From Amoeboradix gromovi X-113 (lineage: Eukaryota; Fungi; Sanchytriomycota), in NCBI GenBank assembly GCA_018985225.1, contig JADGIF010000001.1:1-32000 (forward strand): DNA of 32,000 bases. The letters are read 5' to 3'. Of the stretch, positions 6,873 through 30,877 are shown piece after piece; position 1 is the first letter of the stretch, and the number at the start of each line of letters is the position of its first letter. The translations under genes were made by a program, and so were the position numbers. The notes beneath the pieces are model-generated. The model had not been told where the DNA came from and did not search any database. It saw only the letters and a list, made by a program, of their open reading frames with translations.

Positions 6873-7786
6873 CTTCTTCTCAATACAATCTTGGCATTTA
6901 AAAAGCCGTAAGTTATACTAATAGTGGTAATTTTTTCATAACACAGCATATTTTGATAGTCTCCAGTACTTATTTGTAAGACCAAGGTATTGTTCTCGTA
7001 CAGTCCTATAGATTCACAATGTTTGTAGAGGCCATTAAATATTTTGTTCCGGATGTCTTTGCATCTGCAAAGGTCTAGCACTTGTTTTCTCCTGAGAGTT
7101 CTGAATGAATGCTTTGCCATAAATGCCTTGTAAATTGGATTAGTACCTTTCTTTGTGAAATTCCATTTAGATATGTTAGCAATCACATCGAATGGAAGTA
7201 GTTTTCTACGAATGGATCCAACACTGTTGACCACAATCATCTTTGACCTTGCGTTCTGGTTAAAGGGCTCTAAATTCAGCCCACGTAAATCTAATCTCTT
7301 AGCTGACAACACTGCACCATGTCCCCGAATATCATCCCCATACCAGTCTTGTATCGCGGCAAAGTATTTGATAATTTCCGATTGCCTTGCACTCTTGTAT
7401 TTCGGGTCCCTGTTTTTGCATTCAATTCTTAGTATACTGCCATTGGAGTATTTGAAAGCAATATCCACAAGGTTGTTATTGACAAAATTATTATTTTCGT
7501 CCCTTCTGGAGTTGTCCTGTGTCATCAATATTTGATAGGGATCGTGCTCAAGTAATGGTTCAATCTCAGAAACGTCTCGAAAGAATGTAATTCTCTTATA
7601 CTTGAGAGGAAATGCATCTTTTATATTCAACTGTCGTAATAATCTCTTATGTAGTCCTGAGTGGGGATAGCATAATTCTATTGCAACTGCATATTGAAAC
7701 GTGTATCCCTGCCCGCAATTCTCGTTTAGTTTAATAAATTCTGACGCTTCAGCCAAGGCACTAAGATACTTGAAAGGGTTCTGCAT
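6869..7786 (-). CDS. Putative PD-(D/E)XK (Mrr/restriction endonuclease-like) nuclease
   Basis: Intact 305-aa ORF with GYTFQ (motif I-like), VDIAF...RIECKNR (D...ExK), and a following helix plus GAVLS strand typical of the Mrr catalytic fold. Confidence 0.5.
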   Translation of the reverse strand: MQNPFKYLSALAEASEFIKLNENCGQGYTFQYAVAIELCYPHSGLHKRLLRQLNIKDAFPLKYKRITFFRDVSEIEPLLEHDPYQILMTQDNSRRDENNNFVNNNLVDIAFKYSNGSILRIECKNRDPKYKSARQSEIIKYFAAIQDWYGDDIRGHGAVLSAKRLDLRGLNLEPFNQNARSKMIVVNSVGSIRRKLLPFDVIANISKWNFTKKGTNPIYKAFMAKHSFRTLRRKQVLDLCRCKDIRNKIFNGLYKHCESIGLYENNTLVLQISTGDYQNMLCYEKITTISITYGFLNAKIVLRRR

Positions 7787-8479: not shown

Positions 8480-9812
8480 ATGCTAGGTGTAATCATCGAT
8501 GTTGTCAACTTGATGGGCTTATTATACACGCAAACACAAAAGATGAAAAGGAATAGTGAAGAGTTGAAGTCTCTGATCACGCGTGTATCCTTGTTGGAAA
8601 GCGTACTAAGCCAAATAGTAACTATCGAAACATCAAAAAGTACAGACCTAGTTTTGGGGCATGTCAAGGAAGTCTTGGAAGAAATCATTAGAGAAATAAA
8701 TATAGTACATGAACTTAATGTTGCGTTGAGACTAGGACTAGCTGGTGGCCATAAAGAAAATATTGACAAATATCAATACAAGCTGGATGAATTAACAATG
8801 CAGTTAAATTTGACATTCCAAATTGATAGCAGAGTTGAGCAATTCAAAGGGTCCAAATTAATGGAAGCTAGAATGAATGAAATCTTGAAGAAAACGGATC
8901 ACATGAATACCGCTCAATTGACTCAAATGGTCCAAAATGATTTACCAGAGGAGTTGAAGAAAGGATAGGAAGAATCTATAAATCTAGGTAGAAAAGTGGT
9001 AGTTGATATGAACAATTTACAACAATTGCAGGAAAAAGTGCTTATAAAGGAAAAAGGCTTTAAAATTGATTTTATTAGCAACAAAGCATTGGAACTATCA
9101 GAGGACATATGCGGTAAGGGTAGCTTTGGAATTGTCTACTTAGGATATTGGCAAGACATCCATGTAGCCATCAAGAAAATAAATAACGTTCCGTTTCGAG
9201 AGATCGAAGAGTCTAGTATAAATACCGATTCAATGCAAATATCCAAAGCAGCATTGAGAGAAGTAAGAGCATTTGAGGTGCCGCAAAAGTGTCCATTTAT
9301 TGTCAAAATGTATGGCATCACATCCATGAATGGGTGCCTTGGTATTGTGATGGAATATGTCAGCAATAATTCCTTGTTTCATTGGATATACCAAGATGAA
9401 GAAAATTACGTAGACGAAATACTCATGAAGGGTATTGCAAGCAAAATAGCAAGAGCATTAGCATTTATGCATGAAAAAAAGATAGCACATAATGATATTA
9501 AAAGCAACAATGTGATGCTAGATGAATTGTTTATTCCTAAATTAATAGATTTAGGTACTGTCAAGCTAGTTGATTTAGTTTTAATTGCGAGTAGTAAGAG
9601 ATCCGCCCAGAATAATGGTGCAGTACGATGGAAAGCTCCTGAATATTTACAAGCTACAATGAGGAATGAGGAATGCGAAATTACAAAAAGACTATCCATT
9701 TTGTGGTGACGTGTACAGTTATTCGATTTTATTAGGCGAAATGTTTTCTAAAGAATTGCCATTCAGCATGTTTGATAATGACGAAGATATCAAGAAGGGT
9801 CCAAGTAGGTGA
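8480..9812 (+). pseudogene. Disrupted TKL-type protein kinase with an N-terminal MLKL-like four-helix-bundle domain
   Basis: ORFs 8480..8968 and 8996..9709 share a frame, separated by TAG at 8966-8968. Kinase motifs GKGSFG, VAIK, HNDIKSNN, DLG and WKAPE are present. The DVYS-SILLGE segment follows in another frame after about 9690, and the C-lobe is then truncated. Confidence 0.75.
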
Positions 9813-10256: not shown

Positions 10257-10399
10257 TTTATATCGAAATTTGAAACATAAATACTCTCTACCTCCTATTC
10301 TTTATTTCAATCATTATTTCAGAGACATAGTACAACTATTGGCTCTACAATAATGATTTCAAATAATTTAACACAATTATTCTTTAAAAACTAGACTAA
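10257..10399 (+). repeat. Fragment of the family B (Sola2/Fanzor1-like) element
   Basis: TATCGAAATTTGAAA-ATAAATA-TCT-TAC, TCTTTATTTCAA and CATAGTAC match 30272..30390. Positions 10385..10399 (TAAAAACTAGACTAA) are identical to the family B TIR core. Confidence 0.7.
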
Positions 10400-10561: not shown

Positions 10562-11990
10562 ATGATTACCTCAGTAGAAAAGCAAAAATTTCATTCTGAC
10601 CATGACTGGTATAAACTTATAACAGAAGATCATTACAAAAATCAAATGTTTCCTCACATATTTCCAGCGGATTTTCAAGAGGAAATTGGATTCGGGATAT
10701 TTTCAGATACTACAGAAGTTCCTTGCTATTTCAATGTGAAAAGTAGATATGACTATACTATGATAACAATAATTCATCCAGATATGATCACTGAACATGT
10801 TGTAGATCCAGTTAGAGTTTCTCAGGGACAAACATCAAACCACAAATCTAAGATCAAAGATAAATTTACTATTAAACCCAAACTAGCAGAGGAGTTGTCT
10901 ACGATGAGCGACTTTAAAGAATATGTTGATCTGAATAACAATACTGTAAATTTCCGGCTTTTGTTTAAGTACTTACTTGTGTCTATGAAAAAATGGAAAA
11001 GTTAAAGATTTCTTTCTTTGGATTCAATCGCTTTGCTACCGCAGGAAAAATTATCCCAAAAATGAAGGAATTTGGTGAAAGAAAAGGTATTCGCTATATT
11101 GTACATGCTGATATCAAGAATTTCTATGACAGTTTTTATTTACATGCAAATTCATGGAGCATTTTAGGGAGTAAAAAGCAAGTAAAGCATTACTTTGTTC
11201 AAAAGAGCTATGGCCCCGTAATTTGGAAACTGGAATCCAAAAATGTATGGATGGTGCAACTGTAGGATTGCCGATTGCTCAAACTATTTTTTCGCACTTT
11301 GCAGAGCTATTTCTAATCAAAATGGATGCTCTGCTAGCAGAAAAATGCCCCGAAATAGTCGCTATTAGAGTTGATGATTCCTATTTTATATTTGGAAAGA
11401 CAAAAGATGAATGCTCAAAAATTCTCTTTCAGTTATCCAAACTGTTGAGGTCATACAAATTCTATTTAAATGGTTTAAAGTCAACTTGTGTTGAGAATTT
11501 AACACCTCAAAAGTGGGATGACTTGATGGTAAAGCCAAAAGCTTGCGAGGAAGTAGTAAACATGTTCAGATTGCCTCAAGGTCAACAAAACGAGTGTTCT
11601 ATTAAGTTACTTCTTGATCATCAATTTCTCTGTCAATGGTTTATAGAAGATTGGGATGTAGAAACGGAAGAGGATTTATTAACACGGCTATTGCAGGATT
11701 TTCCGTCCACCCACGTTGCGATTTTTAAAAAAATAATTGATCATGAACTAGCTCAAAAGTTTGTCTCTGTATTTTTCAAAAGAAATGAGTATTTGTATGC
11801 AACTCATCCAACCATCCAATTAATTTGGTGCTTATGGGTTTGTTTTAAGAGAAGCTTGAGAATTGGTAATTATTCCAGTAAAATTAGAGAGCTAGACGAT
11901 CCGTTGATCAACTTGTTAATGGATATGATCGAAAAGAAACCCACTTCTAAACCATATGGGTATTTTAAAAAGCTAGTAAATAATATATAG
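10562..11990 (+). pseudogene. Bacterial-type defence-associated reverse transcriptase (Drt3b/AbiA/AbiK-like), about 476 aa after correcting two -1 frameshifts
   Basis: Collinear motifs across three overlapping ORFs: VPCYFNVK...ITIIHP; ISFF...HADIKNFYDSFYLHANSW; NLETGIQ...TVGLPIAQTIFSHFAELFLIKMD; IRVDDSYFIF; FYLNGLKS. Confidence 0.8.
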
Positions 11991-12851: not shown

Positions 12852-12980
12852 TTATTGTACTTTGTGTCCCATATTTCTTGCTGCCATATTTTCTTTTTGT
12901 GCTAGTAAATGACAGTTTGTACATTCAAATATCCACATTGGGTTTCCATCTCTGCGCATTCCTCAATTAAACGCTTGAAT
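12852..12980 (-). pseudogene. Fanzor2/TnpB C-terminal remnant
   Basis: 12935..12852 translates WIFECTNCHLLAQKENMAARNMGHKVQ*, which aligns with YTCTNCHLKIDRDHMAARKI of the 16954 ORF and is also similar at DNA level. Confidence 0.65.
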
Positions 12981-13252
12981 ACGCTCCTCCGACTACTCTC
13001 TAGCCCTTTGTCATAGATGGGAAAAATAGAATACCTTAGCTTGATTCACCTAGAAAATTATTGTGAGAGGTTTATAAGTGCGATAAGACTAATTATATCG
13101 CGATAAATGATTTACTCAACAAGAATTAACGCCTATCAGGTGGAAAACAACCATTAAAGTTTATGCATAATGCTCTAATAGCATATTACGTCTTCTAAAT
13201 GGGCTAATTAGAACTGAGAAAGGGTTTGCGCTGTTAAGATTCTGATTGAAAC

Positions 13253-15560: not shown

Positions 15561-15594
15561 CCTGTTTCAAACTACAAGTTAGAAATACTAATTG

Positions 15595-15915
15595 AAACAC
15601 CTTGTTCCCTAAAAAAACAAGGACTCGCTTAGATGCTGCGTGCCAGCGACCTGTTGCAACAGTATCTGAAGTCGCTGGAACTCTGACGTGGGATTGAATA
15701 GGGATGTGTATATTTCAAGTGTGCTCTTCACTGCCATGTGGCCTCTCGAGCCAGTCACCATTCCAAAGTCTTTGATGGTTTTGGAAGCTGAAAAGTATTG
15801 AGACAAGGCATTGACTTGCTTTTCAGGACCTCTTTGGTTTATTTGACGAGACGTTCGCATGTAAGATCAGCTCTTTTGGCGAGAAGTCTAAGATCCAGGC
15901 GACCCTTGAATCGCT
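15595..15915 (-). mobile_element. Divergent Fanzor2-element remnant related to family A, with a structured right end
   Basis: Minus strand CACATGGCAG...CCCTATTCAATCCCACGTCAG matches family A CATATGGCAG...CCTTATTCAATCCCACCTCAG. RGHMAVKS resembles RDHMAARK. Hairpins at 15643..15678 and 15600..15622. Boundaries approximate. Confidence 0.6.
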
Positions 15916-16123: not shown

Positions 16124-16569
16124 GGGATACCAAATATAAAAACTAGACCAAGTCGTCTTTAAAGTAGGTGCTCCATAAGGAGGAAATACTATTAGTAATA
16201 AAAGTCCTTCTATCAAACCAATTTTCTTTCATTAATGTCATTCCCCTCTTTAAAATATAACAAAATGACCCACCATCTCTTTCAAATATATGAGGTCTTT
16301 GAGTGTCTAAACAAAAGGTGCATTATTTTAGACAATACTCTTTATCTGTTCCATTTCCTTTTCTTCTAACCACCTTTCGTATAACTTATTTTGTTTTCTC
16401 TTGTTCTTATTAGTAATTGTTTCTAAGATTTTGATAGATGAAAAGCGTTTATACTAAAATAGTTTACTCGGATCAATCAGATTAATTTAATTTACTATCG
16501 GTTAATACACTTGATTTAATGATTCAAACTGTTTCAGAAAGTTAGTCTAGTTTTTATATTTGATGTCCC
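16124..16569 (-). mobile_element. Family B copy: non-autonomous TIR transposon (Sola2-like) with a Fanzor1-like remnant
   Basis: 28-bp imperfect TIRs at 16124..16151 and 16542..16569, and a perfect 4-bp TSD GAGT at 16120-16123 and 16570-16573. Internal CTFCLDTQRPHIFERDGG...MKENWFDRR is homologous to 30520..30727. Confidence 0.85.
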
Positions 16570-16733: not shown

Positions 16734-17337
16734 TTATAGTAACGGCTTGACTATTTTCTTGAATAAATAATTTATTGCGAATTTGTACATATTTTTGTAT
16801 CATTTCAAGACTTTTCCAGATTTTTTTAACACCTTAAACACTCGATATTCTTCCTTTTCGCAAATGGTAAATCAATTCTAAATAAATAACTAGCAGGTAC
16901 AGCATAAAAAGACAAATGATCTTATATACTTACCCTCGTTCAATACGAGCCAGATGCTAAGTAGCTTGTCGAGCAAGGTCGCAAGAAACTTGGCTACAAT
17001 GTCCCATTACACATTCAAGCAACGCTTGAAGTTCAAGTGTAAAAAAAGAGGAAAGACGATGGTCGAATGCAATGAACCATTTACTAGTCAGACATGTACA
17101 AGGTGTGGTACTCTAAAGAAAACCAATTTAGAAACATACACATGTACCAATTGTCATTTGAAGATAGATAGAGACCATATGGCAGCAAGGAAGATATACA
17201 TCAAGTATCTGTATCCTTATTCAATCCCACCTCAGGGTAGTGCAAGCGTGAGCAGTCACTGCAACGGAGATCTAGTACGGATAGTTTCTCTGTGGAAATT
17301 CTCGATTTTCTCGGAAATCAGTACTTTTAACGAGGAG
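16734..17337 (+). mobile_element. Family A copy 1: internally deleted IS607-type Fanzor2 element
   Basis: 5' region shared with copies 2 and 3. Contains the Fanzor2 C-terminal half LIYLPSFNTSQM...SHYTFKQRL...NEPFTSQTCTRCG...CTNC...DRDHMAARKI and the right end TTTTAACGAGGAG. Left boundary approximate. Confidence 0.88.
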
Positions 17338-17340
17338 TAA
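16921..17340 (+). pseudogene. Truncated Fanzor2/TnpB nuclease (RuvC-II, zinc finger, RuvC-III; RuvC-I missing)
   Basis: LPxF, HYxF, ExxTSxxCxxCG, CxxC and DRD motifs. Confidence 0.85.
17225..17337 (+). ncRNA. Putative Fanzor omegaRNA scaffold (copy 1)
   Basis: Right end conserved in three copies, with hairpins GTGA-GCAG-TCAC, GTTTC..GAAAT, GATTT..AAATC and CTCG..CGAG pairing. 5' start is a guess. Confidence 0.6.
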
Positions 17341-17394
17341 TAACAGCGTTAGTGTGAAAATTCACAAATCCGTAAAAGCTTATTGCAATAAAGA

Positions 17395-20300
17395 TCATTT
17401 ATTTATAAATCTTTTGCCTTTTATACTAAAAGACTCCTTGGAATTAAACTCATTCTTAAATTCATAATCTCCAGCTGTAAACACGACCTCAAATAGAGAC
17501 AAGTTCAATACATCCCCTATACAGTTCATTTCTACCGCATCTTCGTTGTAATACTCATGCAAAATGCCATTTAGCTGTATTAACAATGGTTTGATTACAA
17601 ACTTGTAAGGTATTACATGTAGTACTCCATTCAGCAGCAAATTTGCAAAACCTTTCATCACAGAACTAGGGTTAATGACTTTGCAACGAAAGCATGCTCT
17701 GTTGTTGTATTTTATGTATTTTATACTGCAGTCTTCATCGACAAATGGTAGAACTACAATTCTACTTTCCTGCATTGGAATATAGAATTCAAATTCAGAA
17801 CACGGGTACTGTATTTGCTTCGTAATGCATTCAAATGACTGCCTAGGCAGCGTTATTTGCGGTATATTTAGTGATGTTCTATATCCAAATTCATCTGTTA
17901 CTAATGCATTTGTGAAATTAGATACAAACACAACATTTTTAAAGTATTTCGGGAACCCGTCTTCTATTAACAAGTGCTTTGGATGATTTATAGTTAACTT
18001 GATTAGCTCACTTCTGAAATATTCTGTTTTGACTATTTTTGCTTCAAACGGTAATGCTTTGTTCTCTATTGTTATAAATTGTTTAAATTTGCAATTTCTA
18101 TATATACATGCAATTTTTACGGATCGGATTGCTCGGCCCGCTTCATTGCCACTGAGAACTTGTAAACTTATAGCTTTGGTCTCGTTTGGGCCCAGTTTTA
18201 GTGTTTTGCTCATTTTACAATATTTGGGACTCTCAAATTGTACTTTCAATACTTTATCAAATGGATTTGAGACAATTAGTTCAACTTTATTTGCTGTATT
18301 GGGGATCAAGTGCACATCTAGTTTACTGTTTATAATCAGTTGTGGGTGTATTACTGTTCCAGTAATTGGTATACTTTTGATAACCTTATTTTTCAAATAA
18401 ATCAGTACACTTCCGTCATAGTTACCTGTCAGTTCAAGCACAACCATGATTGTGATTGATATGTTTGGTATCAATTTAATTCTCTTCGCATTTACTATTA
18501 TTTTGTCATCTGTTGTTTTTATAACTATTTCTCTTGCTATAATACCTTTGTTGGTTAAAGTCAGTGATTTAGTCAGATCTGAATTGCTAGCTACCTTCCC
18601 ATATATCAAATCCCCAACTATCTCTACCGGTTCGTTCTCCACAAGAGCTAGAAATGATATGCTACCTATTTCTACGTTGTTCCAAAATAATTTAATTTCT
18701 ATCAAGTGTGCTCTGTTTTCGTCGAACACGTGTTGAACTGCTATGTTACTGTTTAAAGTGTATTCAATTTTATGAATCAGTAACGTATCTACACTAATCT
18801 CTAAAACACATACCAAATCGCAATCGAAAGATGCATATATGACAAAATTTGATATCGCCATAGTTACCAGCGCATCGTAATCACATCTTATTACTGGTTT
18901 TGGATTTTCAAATTCTCCCTCGACATGTAGTGTTTCTTTTTTACTATTAATTATGTCAAATGAATATTCTCCCGCTGCTGTTGGATGTATTTTGATCGAT
19001 AAATCAGTTTCCTTGTAAACCAGGCACTCTGAAAAAGTGCTATTAATCGTAATAGGTCCATTTATGTTTATTATATCTAAATATTCCCTATTAATGTAAT
19101 TATTATCAGACACCAATTTAAAATTGTATACAAAATCATAAATTATGCATGTAACAGTAGGGCCGCTATTTGATTTTTCGAGTCTAGTGTTAGACTCAAC
19201 TGTACAAAGATCAATGGCTTTCCTACCTAACTCACCCCATTTACTAGAAGCTATAATGGTTATGGAAGAATCCCTAACCTTAAATATTCTTAGCATTCCA
19301 TTATTCAGTTCTATCTCCGAGTTATGTGGTAGTAGCATTAACTCTACAGTACTATGAACCTTGGATGCCACGACCGGAAATGACAAGAGGGACACAAATG
19401 TGTCTGTGATATTAGAGGGGCATTCTATTTCGACTTTTGGTGTAGTGAAATTACAGCTGACATTCTTGTTGATCACCTCGTCTGTGCCTTCAAATTTTAC
19501 TTTGATGTTGACAGTTTTAGATCCTTTCAATTCACTGAAAACTTTAACAAAAAGACTGTTACTCTCAGAAGGATTTAGGTACCCAGATAAGCTGTTTTCT
19601 GAGAGTATACTCGAGGTGCAACTCAATACTATTTCGTATGATAAGCCGATTTTATTACTTAAATTCACAATAGAGAGTGGAATAGAGTACTGTATACCAA
19701 CTACGCAATCAAACGAATCACTGATATTTAGCCTACCTTCAGGACCTATCGCGCTTGCACACAACTCTATAATAAGTGGAAATTCTAAGCCAGTACAGAA
19801 CAGTGAAAACAAACTCCTAAATTCGCCGCTTCTAGTGGGCGAGAACACAGCTTCTAGTTTACTGAAAGAATGAGGATACAAAGTGGTGTCTGATTGATTT
19901 AAACCCAGTTGAAGAGAATCCAAAGGTTTCTTGATGGCAATATCCCAAGGACGAGCTAGGGATTTTAGTTTGTTAAGTTCCGCTTTACTCGAAGCATTAC
20001 AGATGAACTTTGGCACTGAGGAATTACCGGATTGAACGCTGTAATTTACAATGTAGTTTGAGTTATTTTTAATCCAAATTGATTGCTGACTAGATCTTTG
20101 AGAATCAATAGTAGGAAATTTCAACAAATTACTTGATAATTCCACATCTAGCAATATAGAAACGCCAGATATACTAACACTATGAACAGTAGATAACCTA
20201 CTCTCAAAAAATAAATAGGATTCACTGAAGCTGCCTAGCGCCTTTATTTTAATTAAGAGTTGAACTTCATGACTAGAATTGGGAGCGACTACTATTGTAA

Positions 20301-20739
20301 AAGCGTCTAATGAAAGAAAAGAATGCGGTTGAAAGTCAAGATACACAGCAGAGTTTTCTAAATTTTGAATTGACACAACTACCGGAACAAATGTATTAAC
20401 TGGAACTACACCAATTTTAATTGAATTCACATGTTTGATAAGCATGGGTTTTCTTTTACACTCGATAGGAACGGAGACTTCTAAGTCTTTAGAATTACAT
20501 AAAAAACTGCCGTAGTAATTGGTGTTTATAATTGGATCCAATTTAAGTATAGCCACATGCTCTAAACCGGGTGGCAACTTGACAAAAGACTGGTTTATTA
20601 ATTCAAAATCGGATGAATCAGATTTTAGTTCCAGTTCTTCAGACAAGAATCCTAGATTTTGTACCTTAAAGTGAAATAAATGAGAGTCTGTCATATCTGC
20701 ATCACATCGAGAGATTGAAAGTGGTGACACTACAAACAT
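17395..20739 (-). CDS. HYDIN-like tandem ASH/PapD-domain ciliary protein, highly diverged and short
   Basis: Repeated beta-rich units with I-x-N motifs. N-terminal order LPPGL...VSVPIEC...SIQN...WIKNNS...YPHS..AVFSP...GLEFPL...AIGP parallels the HYDIN N-terminus as I recall it. Confidence 0.6.
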   Translation of the reverse strand: MFVVSPLSISRCDADMTDSHLFHFKVQNLGFLSEELELKSDSSDFELINQSFVKLPPGLEHVAILKLDPIINTNYYGSFLCNSKDLEVSVPIECKRKPMLIKHVNSIKIGVVPVNTFVPVVVSIQNLENSAVYLDFQPHSFLSLDAFTIVVAPNSSHEVQLLIKIKALGSFSESYLFFESRLSTVHSVSISGVSILLDVELSSNLLKFPTIDSQRSSQQSIWIKNNSNYIVNYSVQSGNSSVPKFICNASSKAELNKLKSLARPWDIAIKKPLDSLQLGLNQSDTTLYPHSFSKLEAVFSPTRSGEFRSLFSLFCTGLEFPLIIELCASAIGPEGRLNISDSFDCVVGIQYSIPLSIVNLSNKIGLSYEIVLSCTSSILSENSLSGYLNPSESNSLFVKVFSELKGSKTVNIKVKFEGTDEVINKNVSCNFTTPKVEIECPSNITDTFVSLLSFPVVASKVHSTVELMLLPHNSEIELNNGMLRIFKVRDSSITIIASSKWGELGRKAIDLCTVESNTRLEKSNSGPTVTCIIYDFVYNFKLVSDNNYINREYLDIININGPITINSTFSECLVYKETDLSIKIHPTAAGEYSFDIINSKKETLHVEGEFENPKPVIRCDYDALVTMAISNFVIYASFDCDLVCVLEISVDTLLIHKIEYTLNSNIAVQHVFDENRAHLIEIKLFWNNVEIGSISFLALVENEPVEIVGDLIYGKVASNSDLTKSLTLTNKGIIAREIVIKTTDDKIIVNAKRIKLIPNISITIMVVLELTGNYDGSVLIYLKNKVIKSIPITGTVIHPQLIINSKLDVHLIPNTANKVELIVSNPFDKVLKVQFESPKYCKMSKTLKLGPNETKAISLQVLSGNEAGRAIRSVKIACIYRNCKFKQFITIENKALPFEAKIVKTEYFRSELIKLTINHPKHLLIEDGFPKYFKNVVFVSNFTNALVTDEFGYRTSLNIPQITLPRQSFECITKQIQYPCSEFEFYIPMQESRIVVLPFVDEDCSIKYIKYNNRACFRCKVINPSSVMKGFANLLLNGVLHVIPYKFVIKPLLIQLNGILHEYYNEDAVEMNCIGDVLNLSLFEVVFTAGDYEFKNEFNSKESFSIKGKRFINK

Positions 20740-21491
20740 TTTCTTGGCCTATTGGATTTTGCAAAAAATTGTTGAAAAGTGACGATGTGAGACATGCTCT
20801 ATGAAAAGTATACTAGATTGGGTAGACGTGTAAGAGAAAGAATAAGAGAAATTGAGTAATTAGGCAAAGATACCCTAACATAAAGTACCAAAACCATTTT
20901 TCTAAATGTTATTAGATAATCACAGTAATATAAAATCATTGACACCAGCGATCTCAAGAAACGCCGATATTCTCTGAAAAATATGGAATAATATTATAGC
21001 GAATAAAAGAAATGCGAAAAAGAAAGAATGTGGCAGAAAAGAGATTCTATGATGACGGCAGTGATAGCAGAGAGGCAATTGCGATATCCGAACAAGAAGC
21101 TAGTGCATGTACCTGGTAGAGCGTAATCGGCCTTCTTATTCCTAGGTATAAAAATTCCAAAGAGCGCTTTAGCTATGATGAGAATGGCAAAAGGGCAAGT
21201 GTAGTTGTATTCAGAGATCTCGTAGTGGTAAAAGATTGTTTTCGCCGTAATGCGATCGCTTGCAGAGATGTCAATGCGCGCTGCAAAAATCCTCCCGTCA
21301 TAGAGAGTACGCTGATCAATTGCAAAGGTCCAGTCGGGAGAGAAGAGGAACTAGTAGTGCGACACCGCCTGCACCACAGGCTGCAAATTGTCGGAACCCT
21401 CTGCTCAATTATTTCTAGCTTTAGCTGGTTGAGTATAGTCAGTTTAGTTTGCAGTGTATCAAAGGATATTCGAGTTCTACTTTTAAATTAT

Positions 21492-22880
21492 TTACTGTTT
21501 CTTTATTTTTACCTCATTTTTAGCTTTATTAATGGAAGGAATAATTGGGAGCACAAAGAATGCAACAATTACGGCAACATATGGTGCCCAGTACAGGCCA
21601 TCGTACACAAATCTAATTTTTGAAAAATGTAACAAATCAAAAGCAATCATAGGATAGTACAGCATAAAATGTGTAAAGAGCCATCCCAATCCTTGCGAGA
21701 AAATGTTTTTTTGAAGCCCAAATGTAATTCGCATGAATTGGTCTTCAACCGCCACTACAAGAAATTCAAATAAAAATGTTATATAGTAACCCATGTGGAA
21801 TCCATGCCACATGGCCAAAAATAGCAGAGTACCAATAGCGCTCAAATTCTTATTGTTTAAAAATTTCAATCTTTTGAAAATATACAATTTGCACCACTGG
21901 TTTGTATTGACGTTAAAATTGTCAATGCAATGACGCAATGATGTAGCAATCTCTAGATTGTAAGGTCCGATGTTACAAACGCCTTTCATGTTTACTACAT
22001 CTTTTTCAAACCCATTAAAACTTAGTCCAGATAAGGAGCAGGGGCCTTCATTTAATTTCCAGATTCCAAAGTATTTTGTGAAAGCTCGTTTGCCAGACCA
22101 GAATACAAGATACACTTTATAATACCATGGCGAGTCCAGATAAGATTGGCTCATCAATGCAGACTCAGGAAATGTCAAATTCAATAACTGAGAAAAGGCA
22201 AGATAAAATACACCATAGAAGAAGCACTTTATGCAGTACCTTTTCGATTGCTTCCAAAATGCCATTTCTAGACTATTGGACTTGGCCTCAGCAAGTAAAT
22301 CGTTATTTAAAAAGTTTGAGAAATGCCTAAAGCTAAATAAAGGTCCGACCAAGAATCCAGAAAAGAAGTAGCAGTATGCTAATAATTCAGGAAGGTTTGG
22401 TAGAGTTTTTAATGAAATATCGCCAAGCCAAGGGAGAGAACCTGTTGTCGATCCCTTATATTCAGGGTTTGCACCATCATAGTAATCCCAAGCAAATCCA
22501 ATCAAACGCAGGCACAAAACGGATTGGCATGTTGTCCAATTCAAGTCGTATCCTTCAGAAGCCTCTGTAACGTAGCTGTACAGAAGAAACCCAAAATTCC
22601 CTAAGAAGCAAATTGCAAGAGCGATTTTGCGAGAATTTTGAAAAATGAAGCAGACCTGCCAAGTCATTATGATAGTCACAATAGAATATATTAAATCAGA
22701 CTGGCAAAATATATATCCAACCGTCAAACCAGTCAACAATAAATACGACAGACGCAAGGCTTTGGAGTTATAAACAATGTTTTTGTAGCCTAGAGCGATT
22801 GGATAGCCCAAAAGTATTCCTACAAGAAGCCGAATTGACGCTTCATCCAATCCGGTTTTGGACGACAAGACATCAAACAT
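21492..22880 (-). CDS. MBOAT lysophospholipid acyltransferase (Ale1/LPCAT3-like)
   Basis: Motifs GFLVGP, FNVNTNQW..YIFKRL and FLAMWHGFHMGYY, with a KKx C-terminus. First ATG is at 22880. Confidence 0.9.
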   Translation of the reverse strand: MFDVLSSKTGLDEASIRLLVGILLGYPIALGYKNIVYNSKALRLSYLLLTGLTVGYIFCQSDLIYSIVTIIMTWQVCFIFQNSRKIALAICFLGNFGFLLYSYVTEASEGYDLNWTTCQSVLCLRLIGFAWDYYDGANPEYKGSTTGSLPWLGDISLKTLPNLPELLAYCYFFSGFLVGPLFSFRHFSNFLNNDLLAEAKSNSLEMAFWKQSKRYCIKCFFYGVFYLAFSQLLNLTFPESALMSQSYLDSPWYYKVYLVFWSGKRAFTKYFGIWKLNEGPCSLSGLSFNGFEKDVVNMKGVCNIGPYNLEIATSLRHCIDNFNVNTNQWCKLYIFKRLKFLNNKNLSAIGTLLFLAMWHGFHMGYYITFLFEFLVVAVEDQFMRITFGLQKNIFSQGLGWLFTHFMLYYPMIAFDLLHFSKIRFVYDGLYWAPYVAVIVAFFVLPIIPSINKAKNEVKIKKQ

Positions 22881-22897
22881 TGCAACAGTCTCAAAAA

Positions 22898-23662
22898 ATG
22901 GAAGAAATACATCTAAGATGCAACAACATGAATTGTAGGAAAAAATTGCAGGCTTCAGCATATGTTACAGCATGTTCACATATATTTTGTGTTTCTTGTT
23001 CCAACAAAGCGTTTACTGAGCAATTGCTTTGTCCTGTTTGCCAAAGCGCATTAACTGGTAAATTTGACATACAACAGATGGATTTAGTACCTAATGAGAC
23101 ATACAAAAGTCAAATACTTGCTGGTCTATCACCTGAAATCGTTCAGGATATCTGTTTTCGTTCAATAAGCATGTATATGTACCAGGTCTCTCAAGAAATC
23201 CAACTTCAAGAAATAATGTACAAGCAACTTCTGCAGAAATACAAGACTGAGAGAGCCAAGATTCAAAGCAGAGAACAAAATAACGCGCAAGTGGTAAATG
23301 ATTTAAAAAGGAGATTGCAGTCTTACGAAAAGCAACACGACAGCGACAAAGTTGCCATCACAGAAATACAACAACAACTAAACCAAAAGACTAGGATTTG
23401 CCAAAAGCTTCAGCATATGTATGACATGAACAAAAAACAGTCGCAGCAGATACATACAAAGCAGGAAAATATTGCTAGCAGTAGAAATACCCACTCCAGA
23501 TCTCCAAATGAAGCGAAGAAGTCTTTGTTTAAGTTCAACTCCTTTTCCAGCAGGTTTTCGAATAACTCGGCTGAAAACATGTCGGTTGCTAGCTCTGCCA
23601 AATCTCCGATTGATATCCTCCACACACCACGGCATATTTCCCCTTCCAGTAGTTTTTCTTAA
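22898..23662 (+). CDS. HEI10: Meiotic RING E3 ligase HEI10/CCNB1IP1
   Basis: LRCN..CRK.L...AYVTACSHIFCVSC...CPVC and LAGLSPE...CFRSISMYMYQ, followed by a coiled coil. ATG at 22898. Confidence 0.88.
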   Translation: MEEIHLRCNNMNCRKKLQASAYVTACSHIFCVSCSNKAFTEQLLCPVCQSALTGKFDIQQMDLVPNETYKSQILAGLSPEIVQDICFRSISMYMYQVSQEIQLQEIMYKQLLQKYKTERAKIQSREQNNAQVVNDLKRRLQSYEKQHDSDKVAITEIQQQLNQKTRICQKLQHMYDMNKKQSQQIHTKQENIASSRNTHSRSPNEAKKSLFKFNSFSSRFSNNSAENMSVASSAKSPIDILHTPRHISPSSSFS

Positions 23663-23789
23663 TCTAGGAATATCATTGCCATTTAAAAAAAAGTCTTTAA
23701 TAAACTCTTAATCTTTGACTATTACAGTTCCTTTCTCTTCATTATTCTGCTGCTTTCTTTTTTGCCAAGTTCCCTGAAACAGTATAACC

Positions 23790-24924
23790 ATGGAATCTTC
23801 ATCTCAGCACGATATTCAATCAAATATTGAAGACAGCCCTCCTAACCCCTCACCTATTCTAGCGGAAAAGACGATCAAAATCCCACTAAAGAATGTTGGT
23901 ATTGATACCTACCCGAGCCAGTTACAATCAAAACTGAAGTTGCGCGGATTTAATTTTAATATTATGGTTGTTGGGAGTTCAGGCTTAGGCAAAACTACGT
24001 TTATTAACTCATTGTTTAACTCCAATTTAGTTAAACACGAATCGCATTTGGACGAAAGTGGTACCACTCAAATAAAAATACACAATTTTACGTTGACTGA
24101 GAATGGCATCAACATGCATCTAAATCTTATCGACACTCCCGGATTTGGTCTTGGAATAAACAATGAAAATGCAATGGAAAATATCTTAAAATACATTAAA
24201 GAACAATACACTTTGTACCTACGACGCGAACTCACTGCTGCCCGTGAAAAGTTCATTCTAGATACTCGTGTTCATGCAATTTTATATTTTATATCACCCT
24301 CAGGGCATTCTTTGAAGCCACTAGATATTCTAGCACTGAAGTTGTTGGGAGATATCTGTAATGTTATACCTGTCATTGCAAAATCTGATGCTTTAACCGG
24401 TGATGAAAGAATTGCATTCAAAAAGCGAGTTCAAGAGGAATTCCAATTTCATGGTATACGATTATATCCATATGACAGCGATCCTTATCATATTGATAAA
24501 GACAAGTCGCGCTTGGAGGACGAAGACTTGCAAAAGATATTGGAGGATCAAGTAACTTTAAATCAGAAATATCGGGATTTGATGCCTTTCGCTATAATCG
24601 GCAGCGAGCTTTTAGTACCTATTGACGGGAAAGAAGGATCAAAGATGGTCCGTGGTAGAAAGACATATTGGGGTGGTGTAATTAATATAGAGGACCCAAA
24701 TCATTGCGAATTTACACAGTTGAAGAAGTTCTTATTACAGTATTTCTAACTAATGTAGAACCAATTTGCACGATTTGATTGAAACTACGGCCCTTTATCA
24801 TTATGAATTCTTTAGAACTCGTCAACTATTGGCATTGAAAGAGAGTAGAGAGCAGCATCAAGGTCCACGATCATCTGCCAATATTTCAAGGGCAGAGCTA
24901 GCGCAAAAGAAGGCAATACAATAA
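23790..24924 (+). CDS. CDC10: Septin, Cdc10/AspD group; two exons (23790..24739, 24759..24924)
   Basis: Motifs GSSGLGKTT, DTPGFG and AKSD. Splicing gives LLQTNLHDLIETTALYHYEFFRTRQLLALKES. No coiled-coil tail. Confidence 0.92.
24740..24758 (+). other. 19-nt spliceosomal intron
   Basis: Sequence GTATTTCTAACTAATGTAG with CTAAC/CTAAT branch motifs. Splicing restores the septin unique element. Confidence 0.92.
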
Positions 24925-24989
24925 ATCTAGATGAAGATTCAACTTTTTAAAACTTTGTTACTTTATACAAGCTGAAACGCAAGATAGAA

Positions 24990-26261
24990 ATGAGTTTCTT
25001 TTTTTCTCTATTATTCTCAAAGCAGCTGCTGTTTGGTTATGATTCTATATCAAACTTTAAACCAGCCATGGTTATACATTCAGCTTCAAAAACGAGCACA
25101 GTACTGCAAACTACGAATCTGAATCAATTTAAGTTCACTGAAAAAGATATCGTATATGCATTAGATGAAGAGCCTGTAATAACCCCAATAAAATTTACTA
25201 CTTTTGATGACAAAATAATACCTGATTATACGGACAAAAACACGATAATTGGAATGGCAAAGATGTCCTGGAAAGCGTATTACGAACCAAAGAATTCTAG
25301 TGAACTGGGATGGGGGTGGTCTTCACCAGGACTAAGAGGATACGTGTTTGTACCTAGTTGGATAGCCACTGATAATGACTTAGATGATTTGCCAATCTAT
25401 ACAGATGTGGAAGATATAATTATATCTATTAAGGGTACCTCGTTTTCGCTGACCGGTGGTGGAAAAGAGCAGGATTTAGATAAAAGAAGTGACAATTTAC
25501 TTTTCAGTTGCTGTTGTGCACATGTAGATGTAACCTGGAAGGATATTTGTGACTGCGCTAGCCCTGGCAAAATATGCGATGAAGCCTGCATTCATAAAGA
25601 AGTAATGGGATGCTCATCTCCCGGGTGCTCTTGTCCTTTGGGCACCTGTACTAGAACTTACTACGACTCGGCCAAGGATATCTTAGATATCGTTAAAGTA
25701 AAGTTTCCAAATGCCCGAATTCATACCACCGGACACTCCTTGGGTGGGGCTATGGCTAGCATAATGCTCAACATGATATACGCAGATCCTACTACAAATT
25801 CAAGGGGAGGAGGTTCATTTACCTATGAATCACCTGGCCAGAGACTGGCAATTCATAGGTTAGGCATACTCTTCCCTTCTCCAATATTCAATTTTGGAAA
25901 TAACGCAGACCCTGTGTATACTGGAGAGTGTAATGGAAGAACTAGCAGTTGCTACTTTTTTGGGTAGTTTTATTTTTAATTCAGGTATGCGATGGAAACA
26001 AAATGCCATGCGGGATATGTATGCGAGTATCTAACCAGAAATGCCGGGCCACCCGAAGAAACAGAAGTAGAGGCAGAGGAATCCCTTGCGTACTCTGAGG
26101 ATCTGCCATTTTACTCAAAAGATGTGGAGGCCAAATGGAGGTTGAGCATTATTCATCATAGAATCATTCCAGTAATTAAGAACGTGCTGGAGAAATACCC
26201 CGTCCCTATTTGTGTTCAGCCTATAAACTGTACCGACTGTCCAGATTGGCAGTTCAAATAA
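24990..26261 (+). CDS. ATG15: Autophagy lipase Atg15; two exons (24990..25963, 25985..26261)
   Basis: Motifs GLRGYVF, ISIKGTS, DNLLFSCCCA and TGHSLGG. Splicing gives GYAMETKCH. Confidence 0.92.
25964..25984 (+). other. 21-nt spliceosomal intron (contains an in-frame TAG)
   Basis: Sequence GTAGTTTTATTTTTAATTCAG joins two same-frame Atg15 ORFs. Confidence 0.9.
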
Positions 26262-26379
26262 ATGCTTTAATAAATTTCTGTATTTCAAATATTCAAGAGA
26301 TTTGGGAAGATGGCAAAACTGCAGCCGAGAGTGGTCACTGTAGATGTTTTATAGTCTTAACTGAAATCTTTTTACTTAG

Positions 26380-26958
26380 TTATAAACAGCTTGACTATTT
26401 TCTTGAATAAATCATTTATCGCGAATTTGTATGCATTTTTGTATAATTTCAAGACCTTTCCAGATTTTCCTAATAGCTTAAATACTCGATATTCTTCCTT
26501 TTCACAAATGGTAAATCAATTCTAAATAAATAACTAGCAGGTACAGCATACATTCGTCAACACTGAGGAACTGGTCCAAGCATGGAAGAATTAAATGACT
26601 TTCAATGCCTATTAGAGATTTCTGTACAATTTATTCAAGGAACGCTTGAGGTTCAAGTGTAACCAAAGAGGAAAGACGATGGTTGAATGTAATGAATCAT
26701 CTACTAGTCAGACATGTACAAGGTATGGCACTCTAAAGAAAACCAACTTAGAAACTTACACCTATACAAAGTGTCTTGAGAAGATAGATAGAGACCATAT
26801 GGCAACAAGGAACATACACATCAAGTATATGCATCACTATTCAATCCAGCCTCAGTGTAGTGAAGGTGTGAGCAATCACTGTAACGGAGCATCTAGCGCT
26901 GCTAGTTTCTCTGTAGAAATTCTCGATTTTCTCTGAAATCAGGACTTTTAACGAGGAG
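26380..26958 (+). mobile_element. Family A copy 2: internally deleted IS607-type element (TnpA HTH remnant, Fanzor2 remnant and omegaRNA end)
   Basis: High similarity to 16734..17337. Positions 26530..26598 encode ITSRYSIHSSTLRNWSKHGRIK* (MerR-type HTH as in IS607 TnpA). Also a decayed zinc finger with DRD and the same right end. Confidence 0.88.
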
Positions 26959-27015
26959 TAGCAAACATGATGTTAATTACTACTTGAGAATTATGTACCA
27001 GTCTCTCCTTGATAC

Positions 27016-27261
27016 ATGGGGCATTGGTTCAAGTCACCGAGTCAGCAGTATCAGGCTCAGTATTCTATTTCACCATACAGAGCAAAGCTTTTTGATCCTA
27101 TTGGGTACTCCATTAACAAAACGCTAAAGAGATTCTCATCCAATGTGTTTTACATTGGTATTCCTCTAATTATTGGATATTCCATATATAGCTGGGCAGA
27201 TAACATGAATGATTTTTTAGAGAGCAAAGCAGGTGCCAAATTGAAAGCTCAGCACTCATAA
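27016..27261 (+). CDS. QCR8: Cytochrome bc1 complex subunit 8 (Qcr8/UQCRQ)
   Basis: MGHW..P.Q...QYSISPY, a single TM segment, and FLESKAG near the C-terminus. Confidence 0.88.
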   Translation: MGHWFKSPSQQYQAQYSISPYRAKLFDPIGYSINKTLKRFSSNVFYIGIPLIIGYSIYSWADNMNDFLESKAGAKLKAQHS

Positions 27262-27447
27262 TAAATAGCCCTTGGTTTTAATTGAAAAAGTAATTTGTAG
27301 TGATTACATTAGCTCTATTGTTCCAATTTTCTCTGTTTTTATTTTTTTAAACGCGTGAAAACTCGACAATTTCTCAATTCATCAATTGAGAATGAGATCA
27401 GGTCTCGCGATCCATAAAATGCGAAATTTAAAGAAATTGTTAGCACA

Positions 27448-27955
27448 TACAGAATGATAAATTTTGTAGAATAAATGGTTTATCGAGAATCCGTATGTAT
27501 TTTTATACAGTTGCATGACTTTTCTAGATTTTCCAACACCTTAAATACTCGATATTCTTCATTTCACAAATGATAAATGGAATCAATGGATGCAATCCTG
27601 AACATATCAAAACTAAAGAAATAACTAATAGTTACAGTATACATTCATCAACGCTGAGGAACTTGCCCAAGCATAGAACAATTTGATGTCTTTAACCCGT
27701 CCTCAAAAGATATCAACGATAAATAAACTCGTAAACTATTTATTTAATAACCCGTATGTGATTGTTCTTACCACATGTGTAACAATAGAGAGTATATGGC
27801 AGCAAGGAACATATACATCAGGTACATACATCCTTACTCAATCCCGCCTCAGGGTAGAGAAAGCGTGAGCGATCACTGTAACGGAGCATCTAGCACTGCT
27901 AGTTTCTCTGTAGAGATTCTCGATTTTCTCGGAAATCAGGACTTTTAACGAGGAG
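27448..27955 (+). mobile_element. Family A copy 3: more diverged deletion derivative
   Basis: Shares the 5' region. Positions 27570..27686 encode MINGINGCNPEHIKTKEITNSYSIHSSTLRNLPKHRTI* (TnpA HTH remnant). Almost no Fanzor coding sequence remains, but the right end is intact. Confidence 0.85.
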
Positions 27956-29873: not shown

Positions 29874-30127
29874 TTTTCCTTGTGTGATCCCGGTGAGAGA
29901 TTGAATTAGAAACTTTCTCCATCACTTTAAAGAGAATATTATATGGATCAAAATGATGAGTTCGCCAAAGGAGTCATGATTTGCAGCGTATTTCTAGGCA
30001 ATAAAGCTCCTCACTGGTGTGATAATAGCTTTTTGGTACTTGTCGCATATGTGTAGATGATTCAATATTGACGCCCTAATGCAATGGCTGCAGACTAATA
30101 ATTAATTTTTCAAAATTTAAAACATTT

Positions 30128-30727
30128 GAGACATCAAATATAAAAACTGGACTAACTTTCTGTAACAACTTGGAACATTATTTCAGCTTTATTAATTTTA
30201 TGGATTTAAGAGGCGAGTGGACATTCAGCTAGTTGTGGAGTTGACGATTATAAAAGGAAAATAAATAACTTTTTGTATCGAAATTTGAAAAATAAATATT
30301 CTGTACAGCTATTCTCTTACTCTTTCATCCAATCTTTATTTCAAATAAACCTCTGATTCATAGTACTAATTCATAGTACTAAGTTGTTGGAACAGTTAAA
30401 ACGAAATTGAAATTCAACAAGACAAGAGTCAAGGAGACTGTCCATAGATTACACTTCAAACAAATAGATAAGAGTAATGATGTTAGTATAACATTACAAA
30501 ATGACTCTAGAAAAAAGTACCGTCTAAGAAAATGCACCTTTTGCTTAGATGCTCAAAGACCTCATATATTTGAACGAGATGCAGGGTCTTCTAGTTATAT
30601 TTTGAAAAGAGGAATACAATCAATGAAAGAAAATTGGTACAATAGAAGATCTTTTATTAATGATAGCATTTCCTCCGTATGGTGCACCTTTAAAAACGAA
30701 TTAGTCTGGTTTTATATTTGTTGTCCC
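30128..30727 (+). mobile_element. Family B copy: non-autonomous TIR transposon (Sola2-like) with a Fanzor1-like remnant
   Basis: TIRs at 30128..30155 (GAGACATCAAATATAAAAACTGGACTAA) and 30701..30727. Flanks ATTT and ATAT form a 4-bp TSD with one mismatch. Internal LRKCTFCLDAQRPHIFERDAG. Confidence 0.82.
30356..30381 (+). repeat. Perfect 13-bp tandem duplication inside the family B element
   Basis: ATTCATAGTACTA repeated twice. Confidence 0.9.
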
Positions 30728-30877
30728 ATATATAATGCTTGTTAAATTAATTCATTAACTTTTGCGCTCAAAGCTTGGGGCCAGTTTGTGTTGCTTGCCA
30801 TAAGTAGTTTGTCTGGAATAAGCTAGAGACTAAACTATATTTAGATGCTGGTTCCATTATTCGGTCAGGTGGCTTTT

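What the first reader, a model, noticed from the sequence alone, without database searches (positions are those of the whole stretch)
16734..27955. IS607-type TnpA/Fanzor2 family with three deletion derivatives that all keep the omegaRNA end
Seen: copies at 16734..17337, 26380..26958 and 27448..27955 have different internal deletions but keep the ~110-nt right end. The hairpin GTGA-loop-TCAC varies only in its loop (GCAG, GCAA, GCGA; two are GNRA). CTAGC-nnn-GCTAG (copies 2 and 3), GATTT..AAATC and CTCG..CGAG are also present. Homology stops sharply after TTTTAACGAGGAG(T). Known: Fanzor2 derives from IS607 TnpB, and its omegaRNA scaffold overlaps the right end with the flank serving as guide. 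Inference: stand-alone omegaRNA loci with different guides (TAATAACAGCG.., TAGCAAACATG.., TGATTACTTTA..) usable in trans by an intact Fanzor2 elsewhere in the genome.
Basis: partly seen in the sequence, partly recalled or inferred. Interest (0 to 1): 0.75.

Follow-up and report, generated by a model that had tools for sequence, protein, structure and literature searches.

The report
Fanzor2 ghost elements in fungal parasite
These three repeats are gutted copies of a jumping gene that once carried an RNA-guided DNA cutter (Fanzor2); each keeps both ends, including a predicted guide-RNA fold, most likely because the ends are needed to jump, and whether they still make working guides is untested.

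Summary
Observation confirmed and extended. The three 0.5-0.6 kb repeats are internal-deletion derivatives of an IS607-type element: left end, the N-terminal helix-turn-helix of a serine transposase (TnpA), the Fanzor2 C-terminus, right end. There are no terminal inverted repeats or target duplication; both junctions carry an AG core (left CAG in 4 of 5). Each deletion type recurs in sister ORFs labelled Amoeboradix gromovi, and at least 146 contigs of one DNA run leave the right end into different flanks, so these are amplified non-autonomous subfamilies. The right end is an omegaRNA scaffold by descent: a structure model built from the three copies alone finds the right ends of two intact relatives with compensatory changes, and a sequence-only model does not. 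Present use as guides is not shown: the copies fold no better than shuffles, the scaffold as a whole is no more conserved than adjacent dead coding sequence, the left end is kept as well, and no intact Fanzor or TnpA of this family was found. 'Ghost' Fanzor loci are already described. New member of a known kind; the copy number, host lineage and AG core are the fresh points.

The parts
16744..17337 (+). Copy 1 (deletion type 1): left end, TnpA start, Fanzor2 C-terminus, right end; left core reads GG, probably a changed AG
   Evidence: same junction in sister ORFs P0005 and P0165
16864..16906 (+). Copy 1 TnpA N-terminal remnant (with a 29-nt gap against copy 3)
   Evidence: (loose ends at 16872 and 16906)
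16909..17340 (+). Copy 1 Fanzor2 remnant: shifted RuvC-II Glu, C4 zinc finger, RuvC-III; 128-aa ORF 16954-17340 without RuvC-I, so catalytically incomplete
   Evidence: Pfam Cas12f1-like_TNB E 1.4e-18; NCBIfam TnpB match begins at about 16909; best solved relative 9B0L
17230..17337 (+). Copy 1 right end / predicted omegaRNA scaffold; 33 of 36 model pairs, 1-nt deletion in a bulge
26388..26958 (+). Copy 2 (deletion type 2), left junction CAG, right junction GAG|T
   Evidence: same junction type in P0003, P0161, P0162, P0163
26508..26610 (+). Copy 2 TnpA winged-HTH remnant
   Evidence: 53% identical over 30 aa to the intact IS607 TnpA of L003, pairwise E 3e-11; NF033518 positions 3-27, E 0.11
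26633..26847 (+). Copy 2 Fanzor2 zinc-finger/RuvC-III remnant, two zinc-finger cysteines lost
   Evidence: Pfam E 2.9e-12; translation
26850..26958 (+). Copy 2 right end / predicted omegaRNA scaffold; 36 of 36 model pairs; ends 57 bp before the QCR8 start codon
27451..27955 (+). Copy 3 (deletion type 3), left junction CAG; loses the zinc finger, keeps RuvC-III onward
   Evidence: same type in P0160, P0164, P0166
27570..27692 (+). Copy 3 TnpA N-terminal remnant
   Evidence: 46% identical over 41 aa to L003 TnpA, pairwise E 9e-12
27847..27955 (+). Copy 3 right end / predicted omegaRNA scaffold; 35 of 36 model pairs
12871..13133 (-). Diverged relic r4: left-end-like sequence after TAG, zinc-finger/RuvC-III trace, no recognisable right end
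15590..15746 (-). Diverged relic r5: RuvC-III/C-terminal trace and a diverged right end
   Evidence: (E 0.54, weak)

Best explanation
The three repeats are internal-deletion derivatives of an IS607-type TnpA/Fanzor2 transposon that likely spread as non-autonomous subfamilies, moved in trans by an intact TnpA, and their right end is a predicted omegaRNA scaffold that was likely kept because it doubles as the transposase end. Shown: the element anatomy, the TnpA and Fanzor2 remnants, recurrence of each deletion type elsewhere in the same species, many different right flanks, and a right-end fold shared with two intact relatives through compensatory changes. Inferred from IS607 biology: TnpA binds short repeated motifs in both ends and recombines at a 2-bp core, here AG, into a CAG-type target without duplication; a Fanzor2 with a matching TAM (predicted CAG) would cut the empty site left by excision, while the element's own end (GAG) would be spared. 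While the master was active each ghost could supply a guide against its own empty site; these three copies now look like slowly decaying relics of that phase.
For: TnpA: remnants match the N-terminus of an intact IS607 transposase (L003; 170 bits against a cut-off of 110, Resolvase domain). Fanzor2: TNB domain, Glu six residues before the zinc finger as in Yoon et al., best PDB hit mimivirus Fanzor2 9B0L, DPG motif in the closest full-length relatives. Subfamilies: 9 sister ORFs, all labelled A. gromovi, fall into the three junction types 2+4+3. Copy number: 885 contigs laid on 150 bp of right end; 146 contigs with low-agreement loose flanks at three end positions, 72 rows not shown. No TIR or TSD. 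AG core: CAG at the left of c2, c3 and two contig snippets, CGG in c1; L002 and L003 also end AGGAG|T. Both ends share motifs (ATCGAGAAT inverted pair, TTTCNNGA-like repeats) as IS607 ends do. RNA fold: model R1 finds L003 at 26.5 bits (E 1.4e-5) and L002 at 17.5 bits (E 0.006), the sequence-only model finds neither on the right strand; 12 double-sided changes among 32 evaluable pairs in L003 and 12 among 25 in L002; those two ends fold at z -2.78 and -4.17. Decay: window copies z -0.83, -1.01, 0.0; their majority -1.7; scaffold not more conserved than the 60 nt of dead coding sequence before it (p 0.54); c1-c2 identity is 85% in the right end against 88% in the coding remnant and 89% in the left end.
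Against: Variation among the copies avoids predicted pairs (7 of 72 paired against 12 of 44 unpaired columns vary, p 0.019, partly circular), and the common polymorphisms seen in contigs and sister ORFs sit mostly in loops, which could mean continuing selection on the RNA. The last 40 nt are more conserved than the rest (2 of 40 variable, p 0.01). An intact-looking Fanzor2 of another family exists in the same species (P0016). The serine-recombinase catalytic domain was not seen in any copy, so IS607 membership rests on the N-terminus and on relatives. The left core rests on five junctions.
Confidence: 0.72

Rival explanations
1. The ghosts are live stand-alone omegaRNA loci: transcribed by read-through from neighbouring genes, processed and loaded by an intact Fanzor2 (an unassembled master, or the P0016 family), so that the genome holds hundreds of different guides.
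For: Scaffold pairs nearly intact (33, 36, 35 of 36); variation skewed to loops; c2 and c3 lie downstream of same-strand genes; ghost scaffolds of SpuFz1 work with the protein (Saito 2023, passages); the species' assembly came from amplified single sporangia, where a repeated master could be lost (inference); one 2.7-kb contig runs on 2.4 kb upstream of the Fanzor C-terminus and could not be read.
Against: No full-length protein above 66% identity among 215 stored proteins of 200 aa or more; the seven hits at 78-89% identity among the best 150 are all 99-125 aa; 9 of 912 candidates matched the TnpA start and all are 100-166 aa fragments; P0016 is only 48-54% identical; single copies fold no better than shuffles; sister ORFs imply several pair-breaking private changes.
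Confidence: 0.2
2. The right end is conserved only as a transposase-binding end; its hairpins are by-products of repeated motifs and never mattered as RNA.
For: No compensatory pair among the three copies (0 of 38); non-significant folding; strongest conservation coincides with the repeated TTCTCG motifs.
Against: Structure-dependent detection of the L002 and L003 ends and compensatory changes, including C-G to A-U in the closing helix; 25 more distant viral loci give at most 15.2 bits; architecture matches described IS607/Fanzor2 RNAs.
Confidence: 0.05
3. Each copy was inserted full length and then deleted locally and independently.
For: The three deletions differ.
Against: The same junctions recur in sister ORFs on other contigs and as joints or loose ends in many contigs.
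Confidence: 0.03

Closest known systems
Ghost Fanzor loci of Spizellomyces punctatus Spu-1 (134 ghosts), also drawn for Fz2 of Naegleria lovaniensis and Mercenaria mercenaria (Saito et al. 2023, PMC10432273)
   Same: About 550-nt ORF-less or ORF-broken elements that keep both ends and the omegaRNA region, many copies, variable flank as would-be guide, proposed use in trans.
   Different: Spu-1 is Fanzor1 with 30-nt inverted repeats and has 19 full-length genes in the genome; this family is IS607/Fanzor2, has no TIR, keeps TnpA and Fanzor fragments, and no intact family member was found.
IS607-type Fanzor2 elements (ApmFz2/ISvMimi, ISNY2A1; Bao and Jurka 2013, Yoon et al. 2023, Schargel et al. 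2024)
   Same: Serine-transposase TnpA upstream of Fanzor2, shifted RuvC-II Glu, no TIR/TSD, right-end RNA with three stem-loops and a long-range pairing to the last bases before the guide.
   Different: Core dinucleotide AG with a CAG-type target instead of GG/GGG; scaffold about 108 nt against 205 nt for ApmFz2, overlapping the last 35 or so codons of the ORF; host is a cellular fungus with well over a hundred defective copies.
Bacterial IS607 / IS1535 / CboIStron (Chen et al. 2018, PMC6188088; PMC10690162)
   Same: Short repeated motifs and an imperfect subterminal inverted repeat in the two ends, 2-bp core at both junctions, TAM predicted to equal the target while the element's own end differs at -3.
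   Different: GG core there; no group I intron here; eukaryotic host.
Extra fRNA copies in Chlamydomonas reinhardtii (Jiang et al. 2023, PMC10530073)
   Same: 20 additional conserved guide-scaffold copies beyond the Fanzor loci.
   Different: Fanzor1/Helitron context, expression shown there by small-RNA sequencing.

Membership tests
Fanzor2 | RuvC-II glutamate shifted to six residues before the zinc finger | tested here: met
   E-PFTSQT-C in copy 1; criterion from Yoon et al.
Fanzor2 | [TS][TS]xx-C4 zinc finger-X(5,50)-RD C-terminal motif | tested here: met
   Copy 1 complete; copy 2 has lost two Cys; copy 3 lacks the finger; motif from Bao and Jurka
Fanzor2 | DPG motif in RuvC-I | tested here: inconclusive
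   Deleted in all window copies; present in the closest full-length relatives P0267, P0006, P0008, P0012, P0016
Fanzor2 | Closest to Fanzor2 / IS607 pro-Fanzor rather than Fanzor1 | tested here: met
   Best of 14 PDB sequences is 9B0L, E 7.5e-12, no chain named Fanzor1 listed; relatives in giant-virus contigs and cyanobacteria. No tree was built.
Fanzor2 | RNA-guided DNA cleavage with a TAM | not testable with these tools
   No intact family protein found; needs a cleavage assay
IS607 family | TnpA with N-terminal MerR/BldC-like winged HTH upstream of TnpB | tested here: met
IS607 family | Serine-recombinase catalytic domain | tested here: inconclusive
   Deleted in the three copies and the 9 sister ORFs; present in relative L003
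IS607 family | No terminal inverted repeat, no target-site duplication | tested here: met
   (best end-to-end local scores 5-9, subterminal only), junctions
IS607 family | Same dinucleotide core at both junctions | tested here: met
   AG at the right end of 3 of 3 copies and at the left of 4 of 5 family junctions; the described cores are GG
IS607 family | Short repeated motifs and imperfect subterminal inverted repeat in both ends | tested here: met
   by pattern match only; binding not tested
omegaRNA (TnpB/Fanzor2 type) | Conserved secondary structure with covariation at the right end | tested here: met
   Between families: (alignment fitted to the model). Within the three copies no compensatory pair
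omegaRNA (TnpB/Fanzor2 type) | Long-range pairing of the last scaffold bases with a 5' segment (pseudoknot) | tested here: inconclusive
   CCTC/GAGG here, CCTAG/CTAGG in L002 and L003; predicted as a nested closing helix, pseudoknot topology not shown
omegaRNA (TnpB/Fanzor2 type) | Expressed small RNA extending into the flank | not testable with these tools
   No RNA holder listed
Ghost Fanzor locus (Saito 2023) | Both ends kept, Fanzor ORF missing or broken, many copies | tested here: met
Ghost Fanzor locus (Saito 2023) | Intact cognate Fanzor in the same genome able to use the scaffold | tested here: inconclusive
   None of this family found; whole genome not available; P0016 is an intact-looking Fanzor2 of another family

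The most novel reading that the evidence does not exclude
A 10-Mb parasitic fungus carries hundreds of mobile IS607/Fanzor2 ghost cassettes with an AG core and CAG target, still selected for their RNA fold, each expressing a guide to its own empty site for a Fanzor2 supplied in trans: a genome-wide, self-targeting guide library that keeps non-autonomous elements in place, and a source of a compact (about 108-nt scaffold) Fanzor2 system with a new TAM.
Probability: 0.17. Interest if true: 0.68.

Novelty: new member of a known kind. Interest (0 to 1): 0.4.

Why it matters
Ghost Fanzor loci are known, but whether they are kept for their guides or only because transposases need the ends is open. 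This family offers a natural test set: three amplified deletion subfamilies with well over a hundred insertions in a small genome, where selection on RNA pairs can be separated from selection on transposase motifs once the assembly is in hand. It also extends IS607/Fanzor2 to sanchytrid fungi (no mention found in searches or in the supplements searched) and predicts an AG core and CAG TAM in a clade whose intact members (L003, P0267, P0006) could be assayed.

Tried and rejected
Whole-genome analysis: no genome is held for the window and the genome index gave no answer, so the master-copy question rests on protein searches and one DNA run. RNA: no RNA holder listed; this says nothing about expression. 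Exact right-end pattern scans of metagenome and viral contigs: 0 matches. First protein search for longer relatives: none among 50 candidates, weak. tblastn of the 22-aa TnpA remnant against plasmids: no match. Six-frame Pfam/NCBIfam scans of whole copies missed the TnpA remnant; it showed only on short pieces and by direct comparison. Rfam: 0 families at gathering score. Guide matches in the window: best 3-4 mismatches in 16 nt, chance level; genome-wide search not possible. Plain MAFFT/RNAalifold of five ends misaligned them and was not used. P0267 and the L003 TnpA found no close loci in viral contigs. Summed contig depth was not used as copy number. Whether the first hairpin's loop is GCRA (favoured by sister-copy variation) or GTGA (favoured by L003) stays open. 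Bacterial promoter scan: chance level and not applicable. Earlier findings: two look-ups returned nothing.
Full report
Setting. The window is gene-dense eukaryotic DNA of about 36% G+C with IFT52, a hydin-like gene, MRS2, QCR8 and a lipase. Two window proteins are held in EukProt with names hidden, and all 14 close sister ORFs that I looked up (P0001-P0005, P0060, P0121, P0160-P0166) carry the public label Amoeboradix gromovi. The window therefore most likely comes from that sanchytrid fungus, whose 10.5-Mbp genome was assembled from amplified single sporangia (PMC8371127, passages). No whole genome was available.

The observation. Three direct repeats align at 80-89%. All share a left block of about 120 nt, the start of an ORF, and about 170 nt at the right; the middles differ. 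Homology ends after AACGAGGAG. Two more diverged relics lie on the minus strand, one without a recognisable right end, so 'all keep the right end' holds for the three named copies, not for every relic in the window.

Fanzor2. The 128-aa ORF in copy 1 hits Pfam Cas12f1-like_TNB at E 1.4e-18 and has the glutamate six residues before the zinc finger that marks Fanzors (Yoon et al., bioRxiv 2023.08.09.552727, Results parts 1-2 of 3 read). Its best solved relative among 14 is 9B0L, the mimivirus Fanzor2 (PMC11832414, passages). RuvC-I is deleted in every copy, so none can be a nuclease. Full-length relatives with the DPG motif are 48-66% identical over the shared part; many sit in giant-virus contigs (a neighbour of L004 is an NCLDV capsid).

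TnpA. Whole-copy scans found no transposase. Short pieces gave weak MerR and IS607-transposase hits (E 0.025-0.11), a sister ORF a BldC-type HTH at E 3.9e-5. The decisive comparison was locus L003, an intact element with a 240-aa IS607 transposase (170.2 bits, cut-off 110; Resolvase domain) overlapping a Fanzor2: the remnants of copies 2 and 3 match its N-terminus at 53% over 30 aa and 46% over 41 aa. Among 87 loci, L003 is the best match for the TnpA start and second best for the Fanzor remnant; 30 of the 87 hold a TnpA relative.

Subfamilies and copy number. Reading the sister ORFs, the copy-1 junction recurs in P0005 and P0165, the copy-2 type in P0003, P0161, P0162 and P0163, the copy-3 type in P0160, P0164 and P0166. 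One DNA run (X1; it may be the window's source, so not independent) gave 2704 contigs on copy 1 and its neighbourhood, which includes a MITE end, and 885 on 150 bp of the right end; 33, 60 and 53 contigs leave it at three terminal positions into unrelated flanks (agreement about 0.4), with 72 more rows not shown. So there are at least about 146 right-end insertions, and the deletion types moved after they arose. Movement needs both ends, which by itself explains why the right end is kept.

Ends and core. No terminal inverted repeat or target duplication. Both ends carry related short motifs and one imperfect inverted pair, as described for IS607 ends (PMC6188088, passages). The left junction reads CAG in copies 2 and 3 and in two contig snippets, CGG in copy 1, TAG in relic r4 at the same distance from the conserved block; the right junction is AG in all, and L002 and L003 also end AGGAG|T. 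I infer an AG core and a CAG-type target, in place of the GG/GGG of described IS607 elements. By analogy with ISXfa1 and CboIStron, the TAM would equal the target and the element's own GAG end would escape cutting; this is a prediction.

Is the right end an omegaRNA? The three copies alone do not show it: z-scores 0.18, -0.28, -0.47 or -0.83, -1.01, 0.0 on tighter bounds, and 0 of 38 pairs compensatory. The relatives do. L002 and L003 fold at z -4.17 and -2.78 into a closing helix plus three hairpins ending two bases before the terminus, the topology that copy 2 and the three-way consensus had already given. A covariance model made from the three window copies only finds the L003 end at 26.5 bits (E 1.4e-5) and the L002 end at 17.5 bits (E 0.006), full length and on the right strand, among 63 kb; a sequence-only model from the same alignment finds neither there. 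Background: 15.4 bits in a GC-rich stretch of L007, and at most 15.2 bits in 25 of the 77 viral loci, so L002 alone is near the noise but sits exactly at the expected place. On that model-fitted alignment (5 of 15 rows kept: the three copies, L002, L003) L003 keeps 30 of 32 evaluable pairs, 12 by double changes, and L002 21 of 25, 12 by double changes; the closing helix shows C-G to A-U in both. This fits the three-stem-loop reRNA of IS607 TnpB/Fanzor2.

Are the ghosts still used? For: 33, 36 and 35 of 36 pairs intact; variable columns favour unpaired sites (7 of 72 against 12 of 44, p 0.019, but the structure came from these sequences); the two common contig polymorphisms in the hairpins are loop positions (that table lists only 7 differences and misses some); of five recurrent changes inferred from nine sister ORFs, four are unpaired in the core (non-synonymous changes only, related copies). 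Against: the 111-nt scaffold is no more conserved than the 60 nt of dead coding sequence before it (19 of 111 against 13 of 60 variable, p 0.54); only the last 40 nt are (2 of 40, p 0.01), and these also hold the repeated motifs; several private changes break core pairs; the majority sequence folds better (z -1.7) than any copy, as expected for decay from a structured ancestor. No intact partner was found: the seven hits at 78-89% identity among the best 150 are 99-125 aa, 9 of 912 candidates match the TnpA start and are all fragments, and none of 215 stored proteins of 200 aa or more exceeds 66%. A 671-aa Fanzor2 with DPG, Glu and RD exists in the same species (P0016) but belongs to another family. 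These searches are limited to predicted proteins and can miss a collapsed master.

Mechanism. Most likely a virus-associated IS607/Fanzor2 element entered this lineage (inferred from its relatives), threw off three or more deletion derivatives that kept both ends, and TnpA spread them in trans. While the Fanzor2 was present, each ghost's right end plus flank could guide cutting of its own empty site and so restore it by repair, the model proposed for TnpB and for ghosts. The three copies here are about 85-89% alike and appear to be decaying. Confidence 0.72; live guides 0.2.

Novelty. Ghost loci are described for Fanzor1 (134 in S. punctatus, scaffolds active with SpuFz1) and drawn for Fanzor2 hosts (PMC10432273, section 7 and passages); Jiang et al. 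report 20 extra fRNA copies in Chlamydomonas (PMC10530073, passages); Bao and Jurka define Fanzor2 in IS607-type elements (PMC3627910, passages). Library searches for Fanzor with sanchytrid and for Fanzor, IS607 and AG dinucleotide returned 0 papers, and the species name is absent from the supplements searched (one picture-only file not searched, tables may list accessions only). Verdict: a new member of a known kind, with a real omegaRNA end, a likely AG core and unusual abundance; interest 0.4.

Noticed in passing
window 16124-16569 and about 30119-30728: A second, very abundant MITE-like family with 28-bp terminal inverted repeats; its TIR is 27 of 28 identical to a motif present twice upstream of the Fanzor2 gene in metagenome locus L002, hinting that both element types travel together.
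   Followed up: partly
window 10562-11990 (+): Three overlapping ORFs that together look like a broken reverse transcriptase of bacterial (retron/Abi-like, recalled) appearance; only a weak RVT_1 hit, E 0.03.
   Followed up: partly
window 8480-9709 (+): MLKL-like N-terminal domain (E 3.6e-7) followed by a protein kinase ORF: a HeLo/MLKL-kinase arrangement in an early-diverging fungus.
   Followed up: no
window 6869-7786 (-): 305-aa ORF without Pfam hit that shows a D...ExK pattern reminiscent of PD-(D/E)XK nucleases (recalled motif).
   Followed up: no
window 26959-27016 and 27261-27451: Copy 2 ends 57 bp before the QCR8 start codon and copy 3 begins about 190 bp after its stop, so the insertions may touch its promoter and 3' end.
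   Followed up: no
P0016 (EukProt, A. gromovi): Full-length 671-aa Fanzor2 with DPG, shifted Glu and RD motifs and a CxC first zinc-finger pair; a second Fanzor2 family in the same species.
   Followed up: partly
L003:1155-2990: Intact IS607 element with overlapping TnpA (240 aa) and Fanzor2 (604 aa) and a well-folded right end; a ready candidate for TAM and core assays.
   Followed up: partly
window 10257-10321 and 30272-30343: A further 65-70-nt repeat, one copy inside the larger MITE-like element.
   Followed up: no
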